DNA from: Paramecium tetraurelia | Lineage: Eukaryota | Direction of reading: 5' to 3' | NCBI GenBank assembly: GCA_000165425.1 | Contig: CT868024.1 | Span: forward strand, 124,001 to 188,000 | Length of the DNA stretch: 64,000 nt | In this document: positions 1,452-53,165 of the stretch, piece after piece | Layout of the letters: each line of letters starts with the position of its first letter | Position numbering within the stretch: the first letter of the stretch is position 1 | Program-made: the position numbers and the translations under genes | Notes under the pieces: model-generated | What the model was told of the DNA's origin: nothing | The model's database searches: none | Seen by the model: the letters and a program-made list of their open reading frames with translations, nothing else

Positions 1452-3902
1452 ATGCAATTAAAAACAAAGCTATTGTTAACTTAATTGATGTTATAAAATT
1501 TAATTACTCTGATTTAGGCAGGGAATTAAGAGCATAAAGATGTAATGGCCATAACTCAAAATTCAATTGGATTGTTATTAAACCTGATTATTTTTTGTTC
1601 AGAATATGCAAAACAAAGACAAGACTTCATCAACATTTTGATTCAAATAAACATTATTGTTGAATTAGAGACTGTCTTTTACAACGTGGACAACATCACT
1701 AATTACTTCTCTCTCATCTACTTATTGATTGTAGAAGATGTGTTGAAAAAATAGCACAAATGTTATTAATTTTTAACTCACACAATTTGCATCTATGTTT
1801 CTATTAGACTTGGAGCTTAATTCTATGAAAAATTTACAACCCAGAACTTTGCTCTATTTGTTCTCTGGCAACCACTCAACCATCTAATATTTTACAAAGA
1901 CAATCAACCAAATGAAATTAGAAAGCCAAGTCCTACTTCTCTATCACAAAGACAACCCAATCACAATGCTCACTTCAGTTACGCAGAATAAATCTAATAG
2001 AACCTTATAGACGAGAAGTCTCCATAAGTAGAAAGAAACATCAATGTGGCTCTCGATGAAGACCTACTCAATTGTCTCCCCTACGGATTGGCTTTGATCG
2101 ACACTAATTTCCAAGTTATCAAGCACAATGAGAAATTAATGAGTTATCTGATGATAAGTGAATCCGACCAAATCATGAATCACTTAGATCAATTGCTATC
2201 CAAGTAACCCTATTTTTATATTATCTCAGCGCTGAAATAAACTCCGTAAAAACCAATCCGCATACAAAACATAAACCTCACATAGTTCCTTTGAGAAAAC
2301 TGAAACAGAACTCAGCCAATCACCATTAGAATAGTACTGGCATCAAATCTAACAAGACTAACTGGTTGTCTGATCGATTGAAAGTTAATATTCAAAATAA
2401 GGGCTCATTTTAATCCAGCATTCATGATACCACAACTTACTCTTATGTTCAATTTGTGATGAACGAATTTTAAACTAAAAGTCACAGACAGCTTAATCCT
2501 TCTGACAATTAATCGATTGCCTCAGATTAGACTCACATGTTTAAGTTCCATGTAGTCAAAGATTTCATTATGAAGAAGAAACATTTTCAAATAAAAGTGT
2601 ATGAGGTAAAATTGTAAACGAAAACCAAAGATCCAGTGTTCTTATTCATAATTGAAAACATCACTGATAAGGAAGAATTGAAGGAGTTGACTCATAGATT
2701 TAAATTTCAATAGGCTTTATTAAATTCTTTCAGTCATGAATTGCGAACGCCCTTAAATAGCTCATTACCTCTATTACAAATTTTAAGTTAAAAAATTGAT
2801 GAAACTCTTAATGACAACTATTTATAACTTGCAATAATCTCTTGTCGTAGATTACTTTTTTAAATAAATGACATTTTAGATTATGCTTAAATAGAATGTG
2901 AGGATTTTAAACTAAATTAAAACAATTTTTATGCAAGCGAGATTTTTGAAGATCTGAAAGGATTATTTTAATAAGAATGCACTTAAAAATAAATTGAATT
3001 AATCTTAAATTTTAATGATCAAATAGTTATACATAGTGACAAATTAAGAATAACTTAGATATTGGTGAATCTGATGAACAACTCAATCAAATTTACAAAA
3101 TAAGGAGGCAGGATTATTTTGTCTTTGAAAAAGAGAGAAACTTAATGCATCTTCTCTGTTTGGGATAATGGCGAAGGGATCTCTAGCGAATAGATGTTGG
3201 CCCTATAAAATCAATTTGTCCAATAATCCAAAGGATCAATTAAAATGGGATTGGGCTTGAGAGTTTCGAAGGGAATAGTAAAATTCTTGAGTGGTGATGG
3301 GGAATTGCAGATTAAAAGCGAAAAGGGATTCTACACAGTTGTGAGCTTCTCAATTGAGGAGTCGGCCAGTACAATAGTGAAAGAGGAGGAATCCTCAATA
3401 CGGGATGTTGAGGATTTAGGATCAGATTCTAAGAATTCAGCATAAAGAGTGTACATTTCATCAAGGAAGTTTCTGAATCATTGCGAATGCATTTAAATAT
3501 TGATAGTCGATGATGTACCTTTCAATCACATCACTTTAATGGCATTACTGTAAACTTATGGGTATAAGGCAGATAGTGCTTATGATGGGGATTCTGCAAT
3601 CAAGAAAGTGAAGTAGAGATAGTAAAATGGGTGTTGTAAGGTGTACAAAATCATTTTTATGGATATAGAAATGCCAGGGAAGAATGGATTCATTGCTAGT
3701 AGTGAAGTATTAAATCATAAATTAATTAGAGATCTCTAAGCTATTGAAAAATGAAAGATAAAAGTCGGTTATTGTTATGTGTTCAGCTTATAATGGTTAA
3801 GAAAATGCAGAGTTAGCTCAGCAGAGTGGAATGAATGAAATTATTTCGAAACCTATTTCTTTGGATTCTTTATAAACACTTTTAGTGAAATACTTTTGTT
3901 GA
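1452..3902 (+). CDS. Membrane-associated hybrid histidine kinase (HisKA + HATPase + receiver domain)
   Basis: H-box SFSHELRTPLN; N-box QILVNLMNNSIKFT; G1 VWDNGEGI; G2 MGLGL; receiver ILIVDD...IFMDIEMP...SKPI. Hydrophobic N-terminus. Introns near 2204 and 3706. TGA at 3900-3902. Confidence 0.92.
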
Positions 3903-46326: not shown

Positions 46327-47354
46327 TCAAGTATCTTCACATACATATATATATACATAAAACCTTAATCAAAAAGAACTTTTATATTGATTTGCCTTGT
46401 AATCTCCGTCCTTGTACCCATTGCAAAATTTTCGAATATCATCTTTCTTGATACCTATATCATTCTAACTGTCAATTTTGAATTCTTATTAATATATTTA
46501 CTCTTCCTATTAAAACAGCTTCTCCATTGTGGTTTCCCCCTGATAAGTTAAAATTTAATTCATGTAGGTTTTATAAATTTTGAACGAGGGAGCCTCACAG
46601 GATGAAATTCGTATTTCAACCAAACTAGTCTTGCTGCAATATTCTCTCAAGAAACTCTTGATTGCAAACAACATGACCGAAGCCAGTTTACTTCTTGCAA
46701 TTTGATTGATTTGCTAATCCATCACAGAAAAGGCGATTGATTTCACTCCCAATTCCGTTGCTTTCTCCAAACAATTAACTACTGCCTCATACACAATTTG
46801 AATTTCCCTTGACTGCGTAGAATCGAATTTCCACTTGTCAGCATATGCAGTAATAGAATTTACCCTGAAGTTCTCCTCAATTGAATATGCCATCTCCTAT
46901 TCGTAGGACTCATTCAACACTATTATTGAAGCATCAGTAGCACTAGGCAATACTGCAAAGAACAAGTAATCGTATGGCATCTAAAATCTTTATACAATAA
47001 ATCACTTCTCCAGCATGAGTATGTACAACAGATCCCAATTATACTTTTCCTCCCTAGCTCAAAAGAGTTTGGTGCAATTCATTCAATATCTAATCGCCTG
47101 CAAACTTCCTGTCTAATTAATCACACAAACTACTTAATGTGTTCTGATTGCTAACAGTTCAACTTCAATTTCTGAGTTGTAGTCAACACTATTATGTCTA
47201 CTTACTCATTAAATAATTTCCCGAGACTTAAAACTACACGACAGCCATTAATGTCTGTTTATTGAATAACTTATGCTTGTGGTCTTCCATCCTGTCTGCA
47301 AATCTAAGATTGGAATTCCGCCTAAGTGGAACAACAAATAGACCTATTGCCCAT
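46327..47354 (-). CDS. Macro-domain-containing protein with acylation-type N-terminus (3' end approximate)
   Basis: MGNRSICC...; VVLSLGKLFNEQVDIIV; AVVNCLEKATELGVKSIAFS. Confidence 0.68.
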
Positions 47355-47394
47355 TAATATATATTATATATAATATATTTAATTATGTCTCATA

Positions 47395-48654
47395 TCATTT
47401 CAATGCATCCATCAATTTGTTTTTGATTGCCTAAGCCATCTGACTAACATCCTTCACGCCTCCATTATCCTTCAAATCGATATTTTTAACCACCGTCTTC
47501 CATCCCTCTTCCTTCTACACCTTTTCTCTTATGATAGCCCTATTCTATGACTTTCTTTAGTTTGCCTATTCTGCAAAATCACTATAATCGCATAAATTTA
47601 CTTATGTTACCTCATGAACTTCCTTACATACTCTTGGCCTTATTTTCTTCTCTGTTCTTTTAGTTTCCTCTCCGCTTCCTATATTAAATTTACACAATTC
47701 TTTTACATCCTTTTCCCTTTGCTGACTTAAGTATACATTTTGTTTATTGGATTGATTATTGGCAACTACATCATCAAATGCACTAAAGGCAGTCTGAGTT
47801 TCAATTTTGACCTAAGGCTCTGAACTTTTTACACTTTCTTCATCAAATACGAACTCCTCATAATTCCCTTAAATTAGATTTGGCTATGCTTAGGATTGAT
47901 TCTAATTAGTAGGTTTGAGTTGTGTCTCCAAATAAACTTGATTTTCATCGGATAATTATTATTGATTCTTAACATTCTCCTTTCCCATCAGAAAATCGAA
48001 TTCCAACCCATGGGCCCTCTAATCAGCACTCCCCAAGACGATTTTCTTTGTGCTTGTTCCGCCATATGTGGTAGGAATAGGAACAGGACATTATTCAGGT
48101 GCTTCAAGGCCTTCAAATGATTTACTTACTAGATGAAATTAGGAAGGATGCAGGAGAGTCCAATTGTTAACTTCAGTATTTGGGGTGAAATCAAATACTT
48201 CACTCCATTTGTTATTTTCAGGATCCAACTTGGCTTTACCAAAGTCATCTGTGATACCAGGATAAGCAAAATTGTATGGAGCAAATGTAATGCCTGTTGA
48301 TTTTTCAAGTGCTGGATCACTTGAAGTGTAGACAAAACATTATATACTAGCGAATAGACATTTGATTAATTACTTATTTGAATTTGAGACCCTAAATTAA
48401 CTAGATGCTGCACTTATCTCAATATTTTCACATTTTCTAACAAAGATAGAGCCTCCCACTGGGCCAATAAAGATTTTACAATTCTTGCTCAGATCCACGA
48501 AAATTTATGCAGCATGATCACAAATGTAAATGGTACACTCCTCACAATTGGAGATTACAAAGTCCAATCCATTTAATTATCCAGGGCTTTTAATCAATTC
48601 TTCTCCTGTTTTCTTTCGAAATTAATAATCCTCCCTATTTAATTTAGCTTTCAT
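47395..48654 (-). CDS. XRP2/TBCC-domain protein with clathrin-light-chain-like C-terminus
   Basis: DYQFRKKTGEELIKKPGQLNGLDFVISNCEECTIYICDH..IFIGPVGGSIFVRKC..QFR..FAPYNFAYP..NNKWSEVFDFTP (RP2-like). Tail ...QNRA...GWKTVVKNIDLK...KDVSQM. Confidence 0.85.
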
Positions 48655-49170
48655 TTCAACAACAAACTCTTAAAAATATATATAAATTAAATCATATTTT
48701 CTTCCAAAGGATTAATCTTCATCGAGTAACACATCATTATCAACTCTAAGTGAATGGAGATTTAAGGATCAAATATTGGGTTTAGACATTTGAAATTGTA
48801 TCGAGACATTATAATATAACTTGAATCGACTGAATATGTATTGTTTAATCATATTAAGCCCATTCTATTAAGATTATTATAAGATAGTTTTGTATAAATA
48901 ATGCAAATATTATAATCTATTTATAGCTTTGCCAATATCTTAAAATATTGTAACATTAAATTGCACTAATTCTCAATTCTTTTGTATCTTATAAGTTCAG
49001 ATTGAAGGATAATCATTTTATATTTTCTATCATGTTTCAAATGCTCTCTATTAATTATATATTTTTTATGCTTTGGGTTCTTCTTGATTTCTATTTTTGA
49101 TTCTAAAATATAAGTGGTACTATGCATGTGTTATATTATTCATCAACGAATTAATTTAAATAAATTCAAA

Positions 49171-50827
<1,657 letters not shown>

Positions 50828-50864: not shown

Positions 50865-51879
50865 TCAAAAATTTTCCTCCATCTCCTCCAAAAACTCTTA
50901 TTCCTCCTCATCTGATTCCGAAGTTATACATTCGAATCCCTCCTGCCCTTTCTCTTCAAAAAAGTTCTCCTTCACCAAATATCTGATTGCCTACAAAATA
51001 TATTGTCTCTCTCTGTAGATTTCCCCAATCAACATATTTGTATACAGAGTGTTACTCTTGTACCTAAAGTTTGCAGGGTTTACTCTGTAATTCAAAGATT
51101 CATCCAATAAATTCTCCCTATTGTTATAATCACAAAAATTACATTTTCTCTTTCTACTCTTCCAAATTGCCGATCATCTCCTTTGTATGATCTTCTAAAG
51201 TTTATGTATTTTCTGGTCTTTTGACTTACTACTATTATTACTACTCTTAAACTTGTTCAGCCTCTGGATTTAATTGCTTTAACTACAATTTGAGATCCTT
51301 AATTTTCTTTTTGATTATTTACTTTTCCATTTTTGATAGTTATTATTACTCCCCTCCTTCCTTGGCTTTTTTATAGTATTCTTTTGGTCTATTATCACTA
51401 AGTTTCTTTTGTAATTTAGTTATTTCTTTTGAGATCGCTTCTTTATCATCTAATTTTTTATCTTCTTCCTATTGATTACTCGCTTCTGATTCAGAACTTT
51501 CTTATGGTTCATTGTTGAATTTCTTCTTGATTCTTTTTGATTCAGTGAGCACTTTGCAAAGTTCCTTCATTTACTTGGCTTTAATTTAGGTTCTTCTGCA
51601 GCTGCCACTTAAAATAGATATTTTTTTTCTCAATTTTTATTCCAAGATAGAAAGTTCTTATGCGTTTTCATCCAATGCAGGCCTATCTTTATTGGGGTAT
51701 CTCTTTCTTCTCTATTCTAACCATTTCTTGATTTCATCAGGTGCATCTAAAACAGGATCCTTTTTAATAGGAGGAGGTCTGTGTTTAGGCATTAATTTTT
51801 CAGGGGAAGACAAATCGATATGGAGATTAGGGATGAAGTCAGGCAACTTGTAAATAATCTGAGTATTAATAGCAAACAT
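50865..51879 (-). CDS. NUFIP1: NUFIP1/Rsa1-like box C/D snoRNP assembly factor
   Basis: DAPDEIKKWLEQRRKRYP and C-terminal LYTNMLIGEIYRERQYILQAIRYLVKENFF. Confidence 0.82.
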
Positions 51880-52002
51880 GTTTTTATTTGTTCACAAATT
51901 AATTTTAATAACCAATAAAATATTGAATTATAAGAGGTTGATAAAAGTGGAGATAAAATGATGAGAAATATTAATTTATTTCTGCCTTCATAGTATAATC
52001 AA

Positions 52003-53165
52003 TCAAACAAAGAATCTTGTATTGTAGTTGAACCCGCCTTCATTATAATCGTAGTAGAGTACTTCCCCTGTCCTAATATCTCGACAAGCGTACAAGATCA
52101 CTCTCGATTCGCCCTCCACATTGAACCTTTAGGATTTCACATTTTATTATTATTTTTTACTATTTTTTTTGGTGTTATTAATTCCTGATAAATATTTAGC
52201 AAGATTTCCATATTTTTAGGGTATGATCACCAAAGAAGTGGCAGCAAAATTGGTTTCAAGCAAACTCATCATGGAATCGGATGTACTATACACTTGATCA
52301 GCAAATCGAAACACTTCCCCTGCATATTCACATATCAATGTATTATTGGCTATTGGCTGAACTGCCTTCACATAAAATCCCTAATCCATATTGTATTCCA
52401 CTATCACAGGAGCATAATAGCCGTGTTTGGTCACCTACTTATACCTTTTGAAAGCCTCGAGATCCTTTCCTGTTAATGGTGCCAATTTTTCAAGAGCCAC
52501 ATCATTGTCTTGTTTCGAAACTGATTCGTACACTAGATCATCATTGAAACTAATATTCTGACAATAGAGTGCATATTGGATGGAATTGAAACACTTTTCA
52601 CGTAGAGTGTCATCGTAAATGCAACAGGGTAAAATGAAAGAGTTCTGGTTTTTCAATGAGATTTTTAGCGGTAGGAATTAAACCAAATTTTTATTTTATT
52701 TTATTTTTGGCGGTTTTTATTGCTCACAGAATATACATATAGGCGCTACTTTTTTTGGGCCATAACACTTGCTATGAAACACTTTAGAACATTTAGAACA
52801 AAATTCCTCATCATCACACTATACATGCTTTTAACATCGCCCACATAAAGTATCTATTTCCAATTCATTTGTATCTGGAAATGTATTCTTAAGCTCAAGA
52901 CAACGAGTGCATGTCCATTTTTTTGGTTTGCGTGTCAATTTGGGTCTCTGAAGTATAACTTGAAATATTACCATGCAAGACAGATGATATACATCTTCGC
53001 ATATTCCACATCCAACTGATTTCTGTCTTATTATCCAAGATTTGCATTCATGCACATACTTTATTTTTTTTTGAACTTTTACAGTTCTAACCTCTTTTCT
53101 TCTTATGGATCAAAAATTGAAATTGGTTGCGTGTTGCTTTACTCCTTGATGCTCTGAGTACTCAT
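52003..53165 (-). CDS. PHD-SET histone H3K27 monomethyltransferase, ATXR5/6 (Tetrahymena TXR1) type
   Basis: CGICEDVYHLSC..WTCTRC; second Cys/His cluster; QGFYVKA..TLICEYAGEV..DSMMSLL..GNLAKYLSGINN..LYYDYN..YNTRFFV. Confidence 0.9.

What the first reader, a model, noticed from the sequence alone, without database searches (positions are those of the whole stretch)
47395..48654. Fusion of an RP2/TBCC (Arl3-GAP-type) domain to a clathrin light chain-like domain
One continuous frame runs from a clear XRP2-like beta-helix, with the catalytic-type QFR arginine, through an acidic Phe-containing linker (EEFVFDEE, AFSAFDD). It ends in QQREKDEAERKLKEQRRKQGQEYVRKFMSDFAEQANQRKSQNRA...GWKTVVKNIDLK...KDVSQMAQAI after removal of two canonical introns. 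This tail follows the clathrin light chain pattern (helical heavy-chain-binding region, NRA, W..V...D, KDVSRM) and replaces the NDK-like domain of animal RP2. Inference: it could tether Arl3/Arl2 GAP activity to clathrin coats at parasomal sacs next to basal bodies, directly linking endocytosis to ciliary lipidated-cargo traffic. I do not know this architecture as described, but cannot search to confirm that.
Basis: partly seen in the sequence, partly recalled or inferred. Interest (0 to 1): 0.75.

Follow-up and report, generated by a model that had tools for sequence, protein, structure and literature searches.

The report
RP2-type GAP fused to clathrin light chain
A Paramecium gene really does join a retinitis-pigmentosa-2-like GTPase-activating domain to a complete but divergent clathrin light chain, and the same unstudied fusion occurs in many ciliates, a rhizarian and green algae, hinting at a physical link between clathrin coats and traffic into cilia.

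Summary
Confirmed. On the minus strand (48654 to 47395, ciliate code) lies one gene of four exons; it has three tiny introns (27, 28, 29 nt), not two. The spliced 391-aa protein is 93.6% identical, without gaps, to a P. octaurelia protein. Stranded RNA-seq covers it continuously, and loose read ends match all three splice joins.

Residues 1-200 form an RP2-type TBCC beta-helix. The best PDB match is human RP2, and Q116/R118/E138 are kept as Q86/R88/E108.

The tail misses Pfam Clathrin_lg_ch directly, but it is homologous to clathrin light chains:
- hhalign of Paramecium tails against stand-alone light chains gives probability 98.7%, E 1.8e-16.
- BLAST against Paramecium's own light chain gives E 8e-10.
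- Orthologues pass Pfam's threshold.

Paramecium also has separate canonical light chains, so this is an extra light-chain-like module. The architecture is not ciliate-specific. I found it in Furgasonia, Protocruzia, Ichthyophthirius, Pseudocohnilembus, Lapot (Rhizaria), Mesostigma and Micractinium, and databases label it automatically. Six literature searches found no paper on it.

Heavy-chain binding, Arl3-GAP activity and localisation at parasomal sacs remain inferred. In Paramecium the tail is shortened and fast-evolving, yet conserved among aurelia species.

The parts
47395..48654 (-). Whole coding region of the RP2-like/clathrin-light-chain fusion gene: four exons, 391 codons plus TGA, ciliate code.
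   Evidence: RNA-seq depth.
48374..48654 (-). Exon 1 (codons 1-93 and two bases of codon 94).
   Evidence: The database model P0002 removes the same intron.
48347..48373 (-). Intron 1, 27 nt, GTA...TAG, inside the beta-helix. Its length is a multiple of three and it has no in-frame TGA.
   Evidence: Loose read ends at 48346 continue with the exon 1 sequence. Depth is 0.6-1.5 over 48340-48401.
47707..48346 (-). Exon 2: the rest of the RP2 domain, the disordered linker and the start of the light-chain part, up to ...QQREKD.
47679..47706 (-). Intron 2, 28 nt, GTA...TAG.
   Evidence: Loose ends at 47706 continue with the exon 3 sequence. This intron is retained in the public P. tetraurelia model P0002.
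47611..47678 (-). Exon 3 (EAERKLKEQRRKQGQEYVRKFMS), part of the long helix.
   Evidence: Orthologues P0003-P0007 carry this segment.
47582..47610 (-). Intron 3, 29 nt, GTA...TAG.
   Evidence: Loose ends at 47583 continue with the exon 3 sequence. Retained in P0002.
47395..47581 (-). Exon 4: the C-terminal part of the light-chain module, plus the TGA stop.
48145..48648 (-). RP2-type TBCC/C-CAP beta-helix. Residues 3-161 align without gaps to human RP2 residues 33-191; Pfam TBCC covers residues 31-147.
   Evidence: Pfam TBCC E 1.6e-42 on P0003. PDB 2bx6/3bh6 E 1.2e-33 against TBCC 2yuh 2.3e-19. Foldseek: 2bx6 rmsd 1.2 A, 3bh6_B rmsd 0.7 A. pLDDT above 90.
48391..48399 (-). Codons for Q86-F87-R88, aligned with human RP2 Q116-F117-R118 (the arginine finger).
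   Evidence: Alignment. Q and R are kept in 179 of 180 fused proteins.
48304..48306 (-). Codon for E108, aligned with human RP2 E138.
47758..48015 (-). Predicted disordered linker, residues 205-290. Its second half already belongs to the light-chain N-terminal region.
   Evidence: pLDDT below 50. Lowest conservation among aurelia species, 0.66-0.69.
47419..47967 (-). Region aligned to an HMM built only from stand-alone clathrin light chains: residues 221-384 against HMM positions 16-181 of 191.
   Evidence: 45.4 bits. hhalign probability 98.7%, E 1.8e-16. BLAST against Paramecium CLC P0016 E 8e-10. ESM Atlas: 30 of 30 hits are light-chain clusters.
47836..47862 (-). Acidic Phe motif YEEFVFDEE (residues 256-264).
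   Evidence: Sequence. Invariant Y-E-E-F-x-F-D among the aurelia proteins. By eye, similar acidic-aromatic motifs open Paramecium's own light chains.
47770..47790 (-). Second acidic Phe motif AFSAFDD (residues 280-286).
   Evidence: By eye, compare AAFDAFS in the Paramecium light chain P0016.
47512..47757 (-). Long predicted helix, residues 291-353, spanning introns 2 and 3. It is the counterpart of the heavy-chain-binding helix of light chains, and its N-terminal portion is missing.
   Evidence: AlphaFold2 helix with pLDDT 79-86. Alignments.
47401..47505 (-). C-terminal light-chain segment, residues 356-390, with the conserved W357 and KDVSQM (373-378).
   Evidence: W357 is conserved in 90% or more of 42 fused proteins and invariant in 20 stand-alone light chains. 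Identity among aurelia species is 0.86.

Best explanation
This is the Paramecium tetraurelia orthologue of RP2, built as a two-module protein.

The N-terminal module (residues 1-200) is an RP2-type TBCC beta-helix. By homology it should stimulate GTP hydrolysis on the small GTPase Arl3 through the arginine finger R88, helped by Q86 and E108.

About 90 disordered residues lead into a complete but divergent clathrin light chain. This part has N-terminal acidic Phe-rich motifs, one long helix (291-353), and a C-terminal W...KDVS.M segment.

The most likely mechanism is that the light-chain module lies along the clathrin heavy-chain leg in place of, or beside, an ordinary light chain. The GAP would then be carried on clathrin lattices. 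In ciliates, clathrin pits (parasomal sacs) sit beside every basal body, so this would hold Arl3-GAP activity at the ciliary base and keep Arl3-GTP confined to the cilium. The tail would do the targeting job that N-terminal acylation does for human RP2 and that TOF-LisH motifs do for trypanosome RP2.

Shown here: the gene model, the single transcript, the identity of both modules, retention of the catalytic residues, conservation, and the wide distribution of the fusion.

Inferred: GAP activity, heavy-chain binding and localisation.
For: Gene and transcript.

RP2 module:
- Pfam TBCC E about 1e-42.
- Human RP2 is the best PDB match, with a gapless alignment of residues 3-161 to 33-191 that places Q86/R88/E108 on Q116/R118/E138.
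- Foldseek finds 2bx6 and 3bh6_B at rmsd 0.7-1.2 A.
- Q/R/E are kept in 179 of 180 fused proteins.

Light-chain module:
- hhalign of five Paramecium tails against 20 stand-alone light chains gives probability 98.7%, E 1.8e-16 over 89 columns.
- An HMM built from stand-alone light chains hits the spliced window protein at 45.4 bits over residues 221-384.
- BLAST against the Paramecium light chain P0016 gives E 8e-10 and runs to both C-termini.
- A tail profile found 133 proteins at E<=1e-3. I scanned 89 of them, and 76 pass Pfam Clathrin_lg_ch at its threshold.
- ESM Atlas: 30 of 30 hits are light-chain clusters.
- In Furgasonia the fusion aligns with nearly the whole of its own light chain, 48% identity over 209 residues, E 6e-52.

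Constraint on the tail: among six aurelia-group proteins the helix is 81% identical and the C-part 86%, against 66% for the linker.

Link to the clathrin system: ciliate fused tails group with ciliate light chains and non-ciliate fused tails with non-ciliate light chains (support 92/99). A single clade of all fused tails is rejected (p-AU 6.5e-4; 2.8e-5 on 113 rows). The RP2 halves, in contrast, need only two changes of the fused/unfused label.

No Gly2 for myristoylation: the protein starts MKAK.

Background from papers:
- Clathrin, AP-2 and coated pits lie next to basal bodies at parasomal sacs in Tetrahymena (PMC1277907, abstract and passages).
- RP2 targeting modules differ between lineages (PMC3879569, passages).
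Against: - Pfam Clathrin_lg_ch does not hit any of the six Paramecium proteins or the exon pieces at E<=10.
- PDB sequence searches with the tail profile found no light-chain chain.
- Compared with other ciliate fusions and light chains, the Paramecium tail lacks about 20 residues at the start of the helix, the DPEEEER..RLR..E segment.
- It sits on a very long branch, 1.9 changes per column.
- It reads KDVSQMAQ where the family consensus is KDVSRMR.
- Its last helices are modelled with low confidence.
- Paramecium has ordinary light chains, so the fusion is not needed as a light chain.
- No binding, GAP or localisation test could be run.
Confidence: 0.55

Rival explanations
1. In Paramecium the tail is a decayed relic of a light chain. 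The fusion is ancestral, but the aurelia-group tail no longer binds clathrin heavy chain. It would now serve as a helical spacer or oligomerisation element, or bind some other partner. The protein would then be an ordinary cytosolic or basal-body RP2.
For: - Pfam misses the tail.
- The first ~20 residues of the heavy-chain-binding helix are missing.
- The branch is long, 1.9; the window tail's best identity to any light chain is only 38%.
- The arginines of the KDVSRMR consensus are replaced.
- pLDDT is low after residue 353.
Against: - The helix and C-part are more conserved among aurelia species (0.81 and 0.86) than the linker (0.66), and W357 is kept.
- Two copies are present in each of P. 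tetraurelia and P. pentaurelia.
- The tail still resembles Paramecium's own light chain more than any other row.
Confidence: 0.3
2. The N-terminal domain works as a tubulin cofactor C-like or Arl2 GAP rather than an Arl3 GAP. The fusion would then couple tubulin or Arl2 regulation, not ciliary lipidated-cargo release, to clathrin.
For: - The domain belongs to Pfam TBCC.
- It also matches human TBCC structures: 2yuh at E 2.3e-19 and 9m1m at E 2.1e-18.
- From recall: RP2 and TBCC share the arginine-finger mechanism, and RP2 has reported tubulin-GAP activity.
Against: - It is clearly closer to RP2 than to TBCC: E 1.2e-33 against 2.3e-19, profile E 2.7e-45 against 1.1e-26, and Foldseek identity of 38-39% against 26-27%.
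- The one fused protein that lost Q/R/E is from Micractinium. From recall, this alga is non-flagellate, which fits a ciliary role for the GAP.
Confidence: 0.1
3. The fusion is an artefact: two neighbouring genes, an RP2-like gene and a light-chain gene, that merely share an open frame under the ciliate code.
For: Under a code with one stop codon, long open frames arise easily. The public P. tetraurelia model is itself wrong in this region.
Against: - RNA-seq depth is continuous, with no gap between the two halves, and the strand is the same throughout.
- The junction lies inside exon 2.
- The same architecture appears in gene models or transcripts of five other Paramecium proteins, Furgasonia, Protocruzia, Ichthyophthirius, Pseudocohnilembus, Lapot, Mesostigma and Micractinium.
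- RP2 is N-terminal to the light chain in 189 of 189 proteins that have both domains.
Confidence: 0.02

Closest known systems
Human RP2 (XRP2), the Arl3 GTPase-activating protein; PDB 2bx6, 3bh6, 3bh7
   Same: The beta-helix domain aligns without gaps over 159 residues at 38-39% identity. Q116/R118/E138 are conserved, and the model superposes at rmsd 0.7-1.2 A.
   Different: The Paramecium protein has no Gly2 acylation site (it starts MKAK). It has no C-terminal NDK-like domain (no such Pfam hit). It carries a clathrin light chain instead.
Trypanosoma brucei RP2 (TOF-LisH motifs plus a TBCC domain, tethered to the basal body)
   Same: An RP2-type TBCC domain is joined to a lineage-specific targeting module in place of acylation and the NDK domain (PMC3879569, passages).
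   Different: In the trypanosome the targeting module is N-terminal TOF-LisH. Here it is a C-terminal light chain. That paper reports finding no TOF-LisH with TBCC in ciliates and does not mention clathrin.
Canonical clathrin light chains, including Paramecium's own (P0015, P0016; UniRef names 'Clathrin light chain') and that of Tetrahymena thermophila (P0148)
   Same: The layout is the same: acidic N-terminal region, long helix, conserved Trp and a KDVS.M motif near the C-terminus. BLAST gives E 8e-10 and hhalign 98.7%.
   Different: Canonical light chains are stand-alone proteins of 165-229 aa. The Paramecium fusion tail is shortened at the start of the helix and is too divergent for the Pfam model.
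Fused relatives already in databases: Micractinium conductrix PSC71693.1 / A0A2P6VC77, Ichthyophthirius XP_004034564.1 ('retinitis pigmentosa 2, putative'), and the ESM Atlas cluster 'Clathrin light chain/Tubulin binding cofactor C domain-containing protein'
   Same: The order of domains is the same, TBCC then light chain.
   Different: These are automatic labels only; six literature searches found no study. The Micractinium protein has lost the Q/R/E residues, reading L/K/S. The Ichthyophthirius tail is truncated.

Membership tests
RP2 (XRP2) subfamily of TBCC / C-CAP domain proteins | TBCC/CARP right-handed beta-helix domain (Pfam PF07986 at or above the gathering score) | tested here: met
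   127.4 bits on the read-through translation and 144.6 bits on P0003, against a cut-off of 24.8. pLDDT is above 90 over residues ~11-200.
RP2 (XRP2) subfamily of TBCC / C-CAP domain proteins | Closer to RP2 than to tubulin cofactor C | tested here: met
   PDB phmmer: RP2 1.2e-33 against TBCC 2.3e-19. Foldseek: RP2 E 8e-15 at 38% identity against TBCC 3e-10 at 26%.
RP2 (XRP2) subfamily of TBCC / C-CAP domain proteins | Arginine finger R118, with Q116 and E138 | tested here: met
   R88, Q86 and E108 fall in the gapless alignment to 2bx6. They are kept in 179 of 180 fused proteins. The catalytic role of these residues in human RP2 is recalled from the 3bh6/3bh7 work.
RP2 (XRP2) subfamily of TBCC / C-CAP domain proteins | N-terminal myristoylation/palmitoylation site (Gly2) | tested here: not met
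   The protein starts MKAK. Of 184 fused proteins whose RP2 domain starts within 40 residues of an initial Met, only 4 have Gly2. These are the Mesostigma form, an unnamed MMETSP form, and two short records (259 and 212 aa) with little or no Pfam TBCC match. That this feature is specific to animal RP2 comes from PMC3879569 (passages).
RP2 (XRP2) subfamily of TBCC / C-CAP domain proteins | C-terminal NDK-like domain | tested here: not met
   No NDK family appears among the Pfam hits at E<=10. The C-terminal half is a light chain instead.
RP2 (XRP2) subfamily of TBCC / C-CAP domain proteins | GAP activity on Arl3-GTP | not testable with these tools
   This needs a biochemical assay.
Clathrin light chain (Pfam PF01086) | Match to the Pfam Clathrin_lg_ch model at or above the gathering score (22 bits) | tested here: not met
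   There is no hit at E<=10 for P0003-P0007, the read-through translation, the exon pieces or the isolated tail. Fused relatives do pass: P0008 30.7, P0020 37.8, P0123 47.3, P0263 46.5 and P0267 41.8 bits.
Clathrin light chain (Pfam PF01086) | Significant profile-level homology to bona fide light chains | tested here: met
   hhalign probability 98.7%, E 1.8e-16. An HMM from stand-alone light chains gives 45.4 bits. BLAST against the Paramecium light chain gives E 8e-10. 76 of the 89 scanned hits of the tail profile are Pfam light chains.
Clathrin light chain (Pfam PF01086) | Long central helix followed by a C-terminal segment with the conserved Trp and KDVSRMR-type motif | tested here: met
   Helix 291-353 with pLDDT 79-86. 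W357 is conserved in 90% or more of 42 fused proteins and invariant in 20 light chains. The motif reads KDVSQMAQ, so both arginines are replaced.
Clathrin light chain (Pfam PF01086) | Complete heavy-chain-binding helix, including its N-terminal part (the EKIRKW-type segment) | tested here: not met
   The ~20-residue segment present in other ciliate fusions and light chains (DPEEEER..RLR..E) has no counterpart in the aurelia tails. The Trp of this segment is also absent from the ciliate stand-alone light chains aligned, but is kept in the Mesostigma and Lapot fusions. That this Trp matters for heavy-chain binding in mammals is recalled.
Clathrin light chain (Pfam PF01086) | Binds the clathrin heavy-chain proximal leg and hub | not testable with these tools
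Clathrin light chain (Pfam PF01086) | Stand-alone protein of about 150-260 residues | tested here: not met
   The light-chain part is the C-terminal 137-170 residues of a 391-aa protein. Separate stand-alone light chains exist in Paramecium.

The most novel reading that the evidence does not exclude
RP2-CLC is an old, widely inherited 'GAP-bearing clathrin light chain'. It is found in ciliates, Rhizaria and green algae, with the RP2 half always N-terminal.

The light-chain half stays matched to each lineage's own clathrin, through co-evolution with the heavy chain or through gene conversion with the canonical light chain. That would explain why fused tails group by lineage rather than with each other.

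On this reading the protein is incorporated into triskelia at periciliary coated pits. It would be the ancestral way of anchoring Arl3-GAP activity at the ciliary base, later replaced by acylation plus an NDK-like domain in animals and by TOF-LisH in kinetoplastids. It would directly couple endocytosis at the ciliary pocket or parasomal sac to the release cycle of lipidated ciliary cargo.
Probability: 0.3. Interest if true: 0.8.

Novelty: new variant of a known kind. Interest (0 to 1): 0.6.

Why it matters
How RP2 is held at the base of the cilium differs between lineages. The trypanosome RP2 paper raises RP2 targeting as an open question (PMC3879569, passages). Why coated pits sit beside every ciliate basal body is also only guessed at (PMC1277907, discussion passage).

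A conserved protein that joins an Arl3-type GAP to a clathrin light chain would give both questions a concrete, testable molecule. Paramecium and Tetrahymena are genetically tractable, and the same fusion exists in green algae.

The finding also shows that the light chain, usually seen as a small regulatory subunit, can act as a carrier that brings an enzyme onto the clathrin lattice.

The practical by-product is a corrected gene model for P. tetraurelia. The public 410-aa model retains two introns and so hides the light-chain helix.

Tried and rejected
- Pfam on single exons and on the isolated tail gave no light-chain hit; the only matches were weak and spurious (RRP7, SRI).
- PDB sequence searches with the whole-protein profile A1 and the tail profile A2 found RP2 and TBCC chains only. 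No light-chain chain appeared; the best tail hits were hnRNP H/F at E 0.1-2.
- The genome search on the window's own genome: no genome is held for this window. I therefore could not look in this assembly for a heavy chain, Arl3 or the stand-alone light chain. The stand-alone light chains I cite are from P. pentaurelia and P. primaurelia.
- The look-up of sequencing runs: no RNA holder listed among the indexed runs. The raw-read runs X19 and X20 were laid instead. The contig runs X3 and X11 each gave one piece, at the edges only, and add nothing. The joints table was empty (58-nt reads), so the splice evidence rests on loose ends of 3-4 reads each and on dips in depth.
- Complex prediction was not used. 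The informative partners, clathrin heavy chain and Arl3, were not available as session sequences.
- I did not run a fold search on the tail alone, because a single long helix is not discriminating. The whole-model search returned only beta-helix proteins.
- The search of earlier findings returned nothing three times.
- Literature: the term pairs and triples were 'clathrin light chain' with TBCC, with ciliates+Paramecium, with Tetrahymena, with 'retinitis pigmentosa 2', and with 'cofactor C'; and 'TBCC domain'/RP2/ciliates. None returned a paper on the fusion. The library lacks most subscription journals, and I opened no supplements.
- The 113-row light-chain tree is poorly resolved (49 of 110 forks open). 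Many 'unfused' rows in it are unnamed metagenome ORFs that could be fragments of fused genes, so I repeated the test with named sequences only.
- Whether Tetrahymena has the fusion was not settled. It did not appear among the 120 of 224 hits listed.
Full report
**1. What is in the sequence**

The feature lies on the minus strand. Read with the ciliate nuclear code, one frame is open from the ATG at 48654 to the TGA at 47397-47395, with 22 in-frame TAA/TAG read as Gln.

A scan for GTA...TAG introns, followed by assembly of the exons in a script, gives four exons: 48654-48374, 48346-47707, 47678-47611 and 47581-47395. There are three introns of 27, 28 and 29 nt.

The spliced product is 391 aa. 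It aligns without a single gap to the P. octaurelia protein P0003 at 93.6% identity, and at 79-84% to four further Paramecium proteins, including a second P. tetraurelia copy, P0006. The organism is therefore Paramecium tetraurelia. The public 410-aa model for this very gene (P0002) removes intron 1 but retains introns 2 and 3. That replaces the EAERKLKEQ...FMS segment with out-of-frame residues.

**2. One transcript**

I laid two raw-read oligo-dT stranded RNA-seq runs of the same species label on 47100-48950.

- Depth is about 4-25 over 47410-48650 apart from the intron dips listed next, in both runs.
- It falls to about 2 between this gene and the next one downstream (47348-47409).
- It is 0.3-0.7 at 48650-48711 and zero beyond 48712.
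- Every first mate lies on the + strand, which in most stranded libraries means RNA from the minus strand.
- Depth dips over each intron, for example to 0.6-1.5 over 48340-48401.
- Loose ends of reads at 47583, 47706 and 48346 continue with exactly the sequence of the next exon.

The support per junction is small (3-4 reads), and the tool's joints table is empty because the reads are only 58 nt. Even so, the three junctions agree with the orthologous gene models. The boundary between the two protein modules lies inside exon 2, where depth is even. I see no sign of two transcripts.

**3. The N-terminal module**

- Pfam TBCC matches residues 31-147 at E about 1e-42.
- Against all PDB sequences the best match is human RP2 (2bx6, 3bh6/3bh7) at E 1.2e-33. 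Tubulin cofactor C follows at 2.3e-19. With a family profile the gap widens to 2.7e-45 against 1.1e-26.
- The alignment to RP2 is gapless (3-161 to 33-191). Q86, R88 and E108 therefore fall on Q116, R118 and E138. From recall, R118 is the arginine finger of the RP2-Arl3 complex.
- An AlphaFold2 model built on 42 fused relatives has pLDDT above 90 for residues ~11-200. It superposes on 2bx6 and 3bh6_B at rmsd 0.7-1.2 A.
- Across 180 fused proteins that cover this region, Q/R/E are present in 179.
- Two things differ from animal RP2. There is no Gly2, since the protein starts MKAK, and no NDK-like domain is detected.

**4. The tail**

Pfam Clathrin_lg_ch gives no hit at E<=10 on any Paramecium protein, on the exon pieces or on the isolated tail. 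PDB sequence searches find no light-chain chain either.

Every more sensitive test agrees that the tail is a light chain:

- **(a) hhalign.** A profile of the five Paramecium tails alone, compared with an alignment of 20 stand-alone light chains, gives probability 98.7%, E 1.8e-16 over 89 columns.
- **(b) Independent HMM.** An HMM that I built only from those stand-alone light chains hits the spliced window protein at 45.4 bits. It aligns HMM positions 16-181 of 191 to residues 221-384.
- **(c) BLAST.** Plain BLAST of P0003 against a Paramecium stand-alone light chain (P0016) gives E 8e-10, 38% identity over 99 residues, running to the C-termini of both.
- **(d) Profile search.** A tail profile (five Paramecium tails plus the tail of the relative P0008) searched against 1.84 billion representatives found 133 proteins at E<=1e-3.
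  - I scanned 89 of them in Pfam. The 44 left out were P0003 itself and proteins or fragments of at most 140 aa.
  - 76 pass Clathrin_lg_ch at its threshold, one is just below, eight have no family, and four show TBCC only.
- **(e) ESM Atlas.** It returns light-chain clusters for 30 of 30 hits to residues 255-391, with a score of 0.90 and 206 of 256 shared features.
- **(f) Structure.** The model has a disordered stretch (205-290), a 63-residue helix (291-353, pLDDT 79-86) and two short C-terminal helices of low confidence.

The whole light chain is present, not just its end. In Furgasonia the fusion aligns to residues 14-214 of that species' own 217-aa light chain, at 48% identity and E 6e-52.

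**5. How the Paramecium tail departs from the family**

- Relative to other ciliate fusions and light chains, it lacks about 20 residues at the start of the helix.
- It reads KDVSQMAQ where the consensus is KDVSRMR.
- It sits on a branch of 1.9 changes per column.
- It is nevertheless under constraint. Among six aurelia-group proteins the helix is 81% and the C-part 86% identical, against 66% for the linker and 93% for the beta-helix.

**6. Paramecium has ordinary light chains as well**

The tail profile also recovered proteins of 165-170 aa from P. pentaurelia and P. primaurelia that UniRef names 'Clathrin light chain'. It recovered the 229-aa Tetrahymena thermophila light chain too. The fusion is therefore an additional light-chain-like protein, not the cell's only one.

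**7. Distribution**

Fused proteins carrying a source name come from:

- Furgasonia blochmanni and Protocruzia adherens;
- Ichthyophthirius multifiliis, annotated 'retinitis pigmentosa 2, putative';
- Pseudocohnilembus persalinus;
- outside ciliates, Lapot gusevi (Rhizaria), Mesostigma viride and Micractinium conductrix, the last on a 1.21-Mb contig.

A profile search listed 120 of 224 hits at E<=1e-10. Of the 111 new proteins among them, 108 have both modules by my HMMs. Most are unnamed and redundant metagenome sequences, so these numbers show abundance, not breadth.

Klebsormidium and Aphanomyces RP2-like proteins have no light-chain tail. The ESM Atlas holds a 61-member cluster that is automatically named for both domains.

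**8. History**

On a tree of the RP2 halves, the window protein sits in a well-supported clade (SH-aLRT 98) with the Furgasonia, Ichthyophthirius and Pseudocohnilembus fusions and three unnamed fused proteins. The label 'has a light chain' needs only two changes on that tree.

The light-chain halves behave differently. On 113 rows, fused and unfused sequences interleave, and holding the fused ones together costs 328 log-likelihood units (p-AU 2.8e-5).

Many unfused rows there could be fragments of fused genes, so I repeated the test with 26 named sequences. Ciliate fused tails group with ciliate light chains, and the Mesostigma, Micractinium and Lapot tails group with non-ciliate light chains (92/99). 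One clade of all fused tails is rejected (p-AU 6.5e-4). One clade of the ciliate fused tails is weakly rejected (p 0.028). Long branches are involved, and the trees are short alignments.

There are three possible readings:
- an old fusion whose tail keeps being matched to the lineage's clathrin, by co-evolution or gene conversion;
- independent fusions;
- repeated fission.

I cannot choose between them. The first fits the RP2 tree best, and it implies that the tail still works with the clathrin machinery.

**9. Mechanism**

The statements about function are inference. By homology, the beta-helix should be an Arl3 GAP. By homology, the tail should lie along the heavy-chain leg.

In Tetrahymena, clathrin, AP-2 and coated pits lie just beside basal bodies at parasomal sacs (PMC1277907, abstract and passages). 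RP2 proteins of other lineages use different add-on modules for targeting: acylation in humans and TOF-LisH in trypanosomes (PMC3879569, passages).

The simplest reading is that the light-chain module is the targeting device of this RP2. It would place the GAP on clathrin lattices at the ciliary base. I put this at about 0.55.

- The main rival is that the aurelia tail has lost heavy-chain binding (0.3).
- An Arl2/tubulin role for the GAP is less likely (0.1).
- An annotation artefact is excluded for practical purposes (0.02).

**10. Novelty and verdict**

Six full-text searches found no paper that mentions the fusion. The library does not cover most subscription journals.

I rate it a new variant of known kinds, with interest 0.6. 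It is real, conserved, unstudied and directly testable, but its function is still only inferred.

Noticed in passing
window 47582-47706 (introns 2 and 3) and protein P0002: The public P. tetraurelia gene model for this locus (410 aa) retains introns 2 and 3 (28 + 29 = 57 nt, no TGA). It replaces the EAERKLKEQ...FMS helix segment with out-of-frame residues, which hides the light-chain helix. The orthologue models in four sister species are spliced correctly.
   Followed up: yes
window 48347-48373: Intron 1 is 27 nt, a multiple of three, and has no in-frame TGA. Retaining it would insert nine residues into the beta-helix without ending the frame. RNA-seq depth there is 0.6-1.5 against about 15 on either side, so it is efficiently removed.
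   Followed up: partly
protein P0267 (Micractinium conductrix): This is the only one of 180 fused proteins that lost the catalytic Q/R/E residues; it reads L/K/S while keeping the light-chain tail. From recall, this alga is non-flagellate and an endosymbiont of Paramecium bursaria. The loss would fit a ciliary role for the GAP.
   Followed up: partly
proteins P0266, P0268, P0271 (unnamed metagenome proteins): RP2-like TBCC domains are also fused to other modules: FKBP plus TPR repeats, a dual-specificity phosphatase domain, and a MINDY-3/4 deubiquitinase domain. The RP2 beta-helix therefore seems to be a promiscuous module.
   Followed up: no
light-chain trees: The light-chain halves of fused proteins group with the stand-alone light chains of their own lineage rather than with each other, while the RP2 halves are compatible with one origin. 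Possible causes are gene conversion, co-evolution with the heavy chain, or repeated fusion.
   Followed up: partly
window 47100-47347, minus strand: The next gene downstream on the same strand is expressed at higher depth (12-59). It has its own splice junction near 47126, shown by loose ends in 6 and 16 reads and one contig. Its ORFs (46369-47001 and 47121-47399) have no Pfam family.
   Followed up: no
window 49173-50315 (+), 51130-51891 (-), 52003-53109 (-), 2162-3754 (+): The neighbouring genes are functionally unrelated: a Ser/Thr protein kinase transcribed divergently from the fusion gene, a NUFIP1-like protein, a PHD-SET protein, and a hybrid histidine kinase with a receiver domain.
   Followed up: no
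alignment: The Trp of the EKIRKW-type segment at the start of the light-chain helix is absent from all ciliate light chains aligned, both stand-alone and fused. It is kept in the Mesostigma and Lapot fusions. Ciliate clathrin may therefore use a modified light-chain/heavy-chain interface.
   Followed up: no
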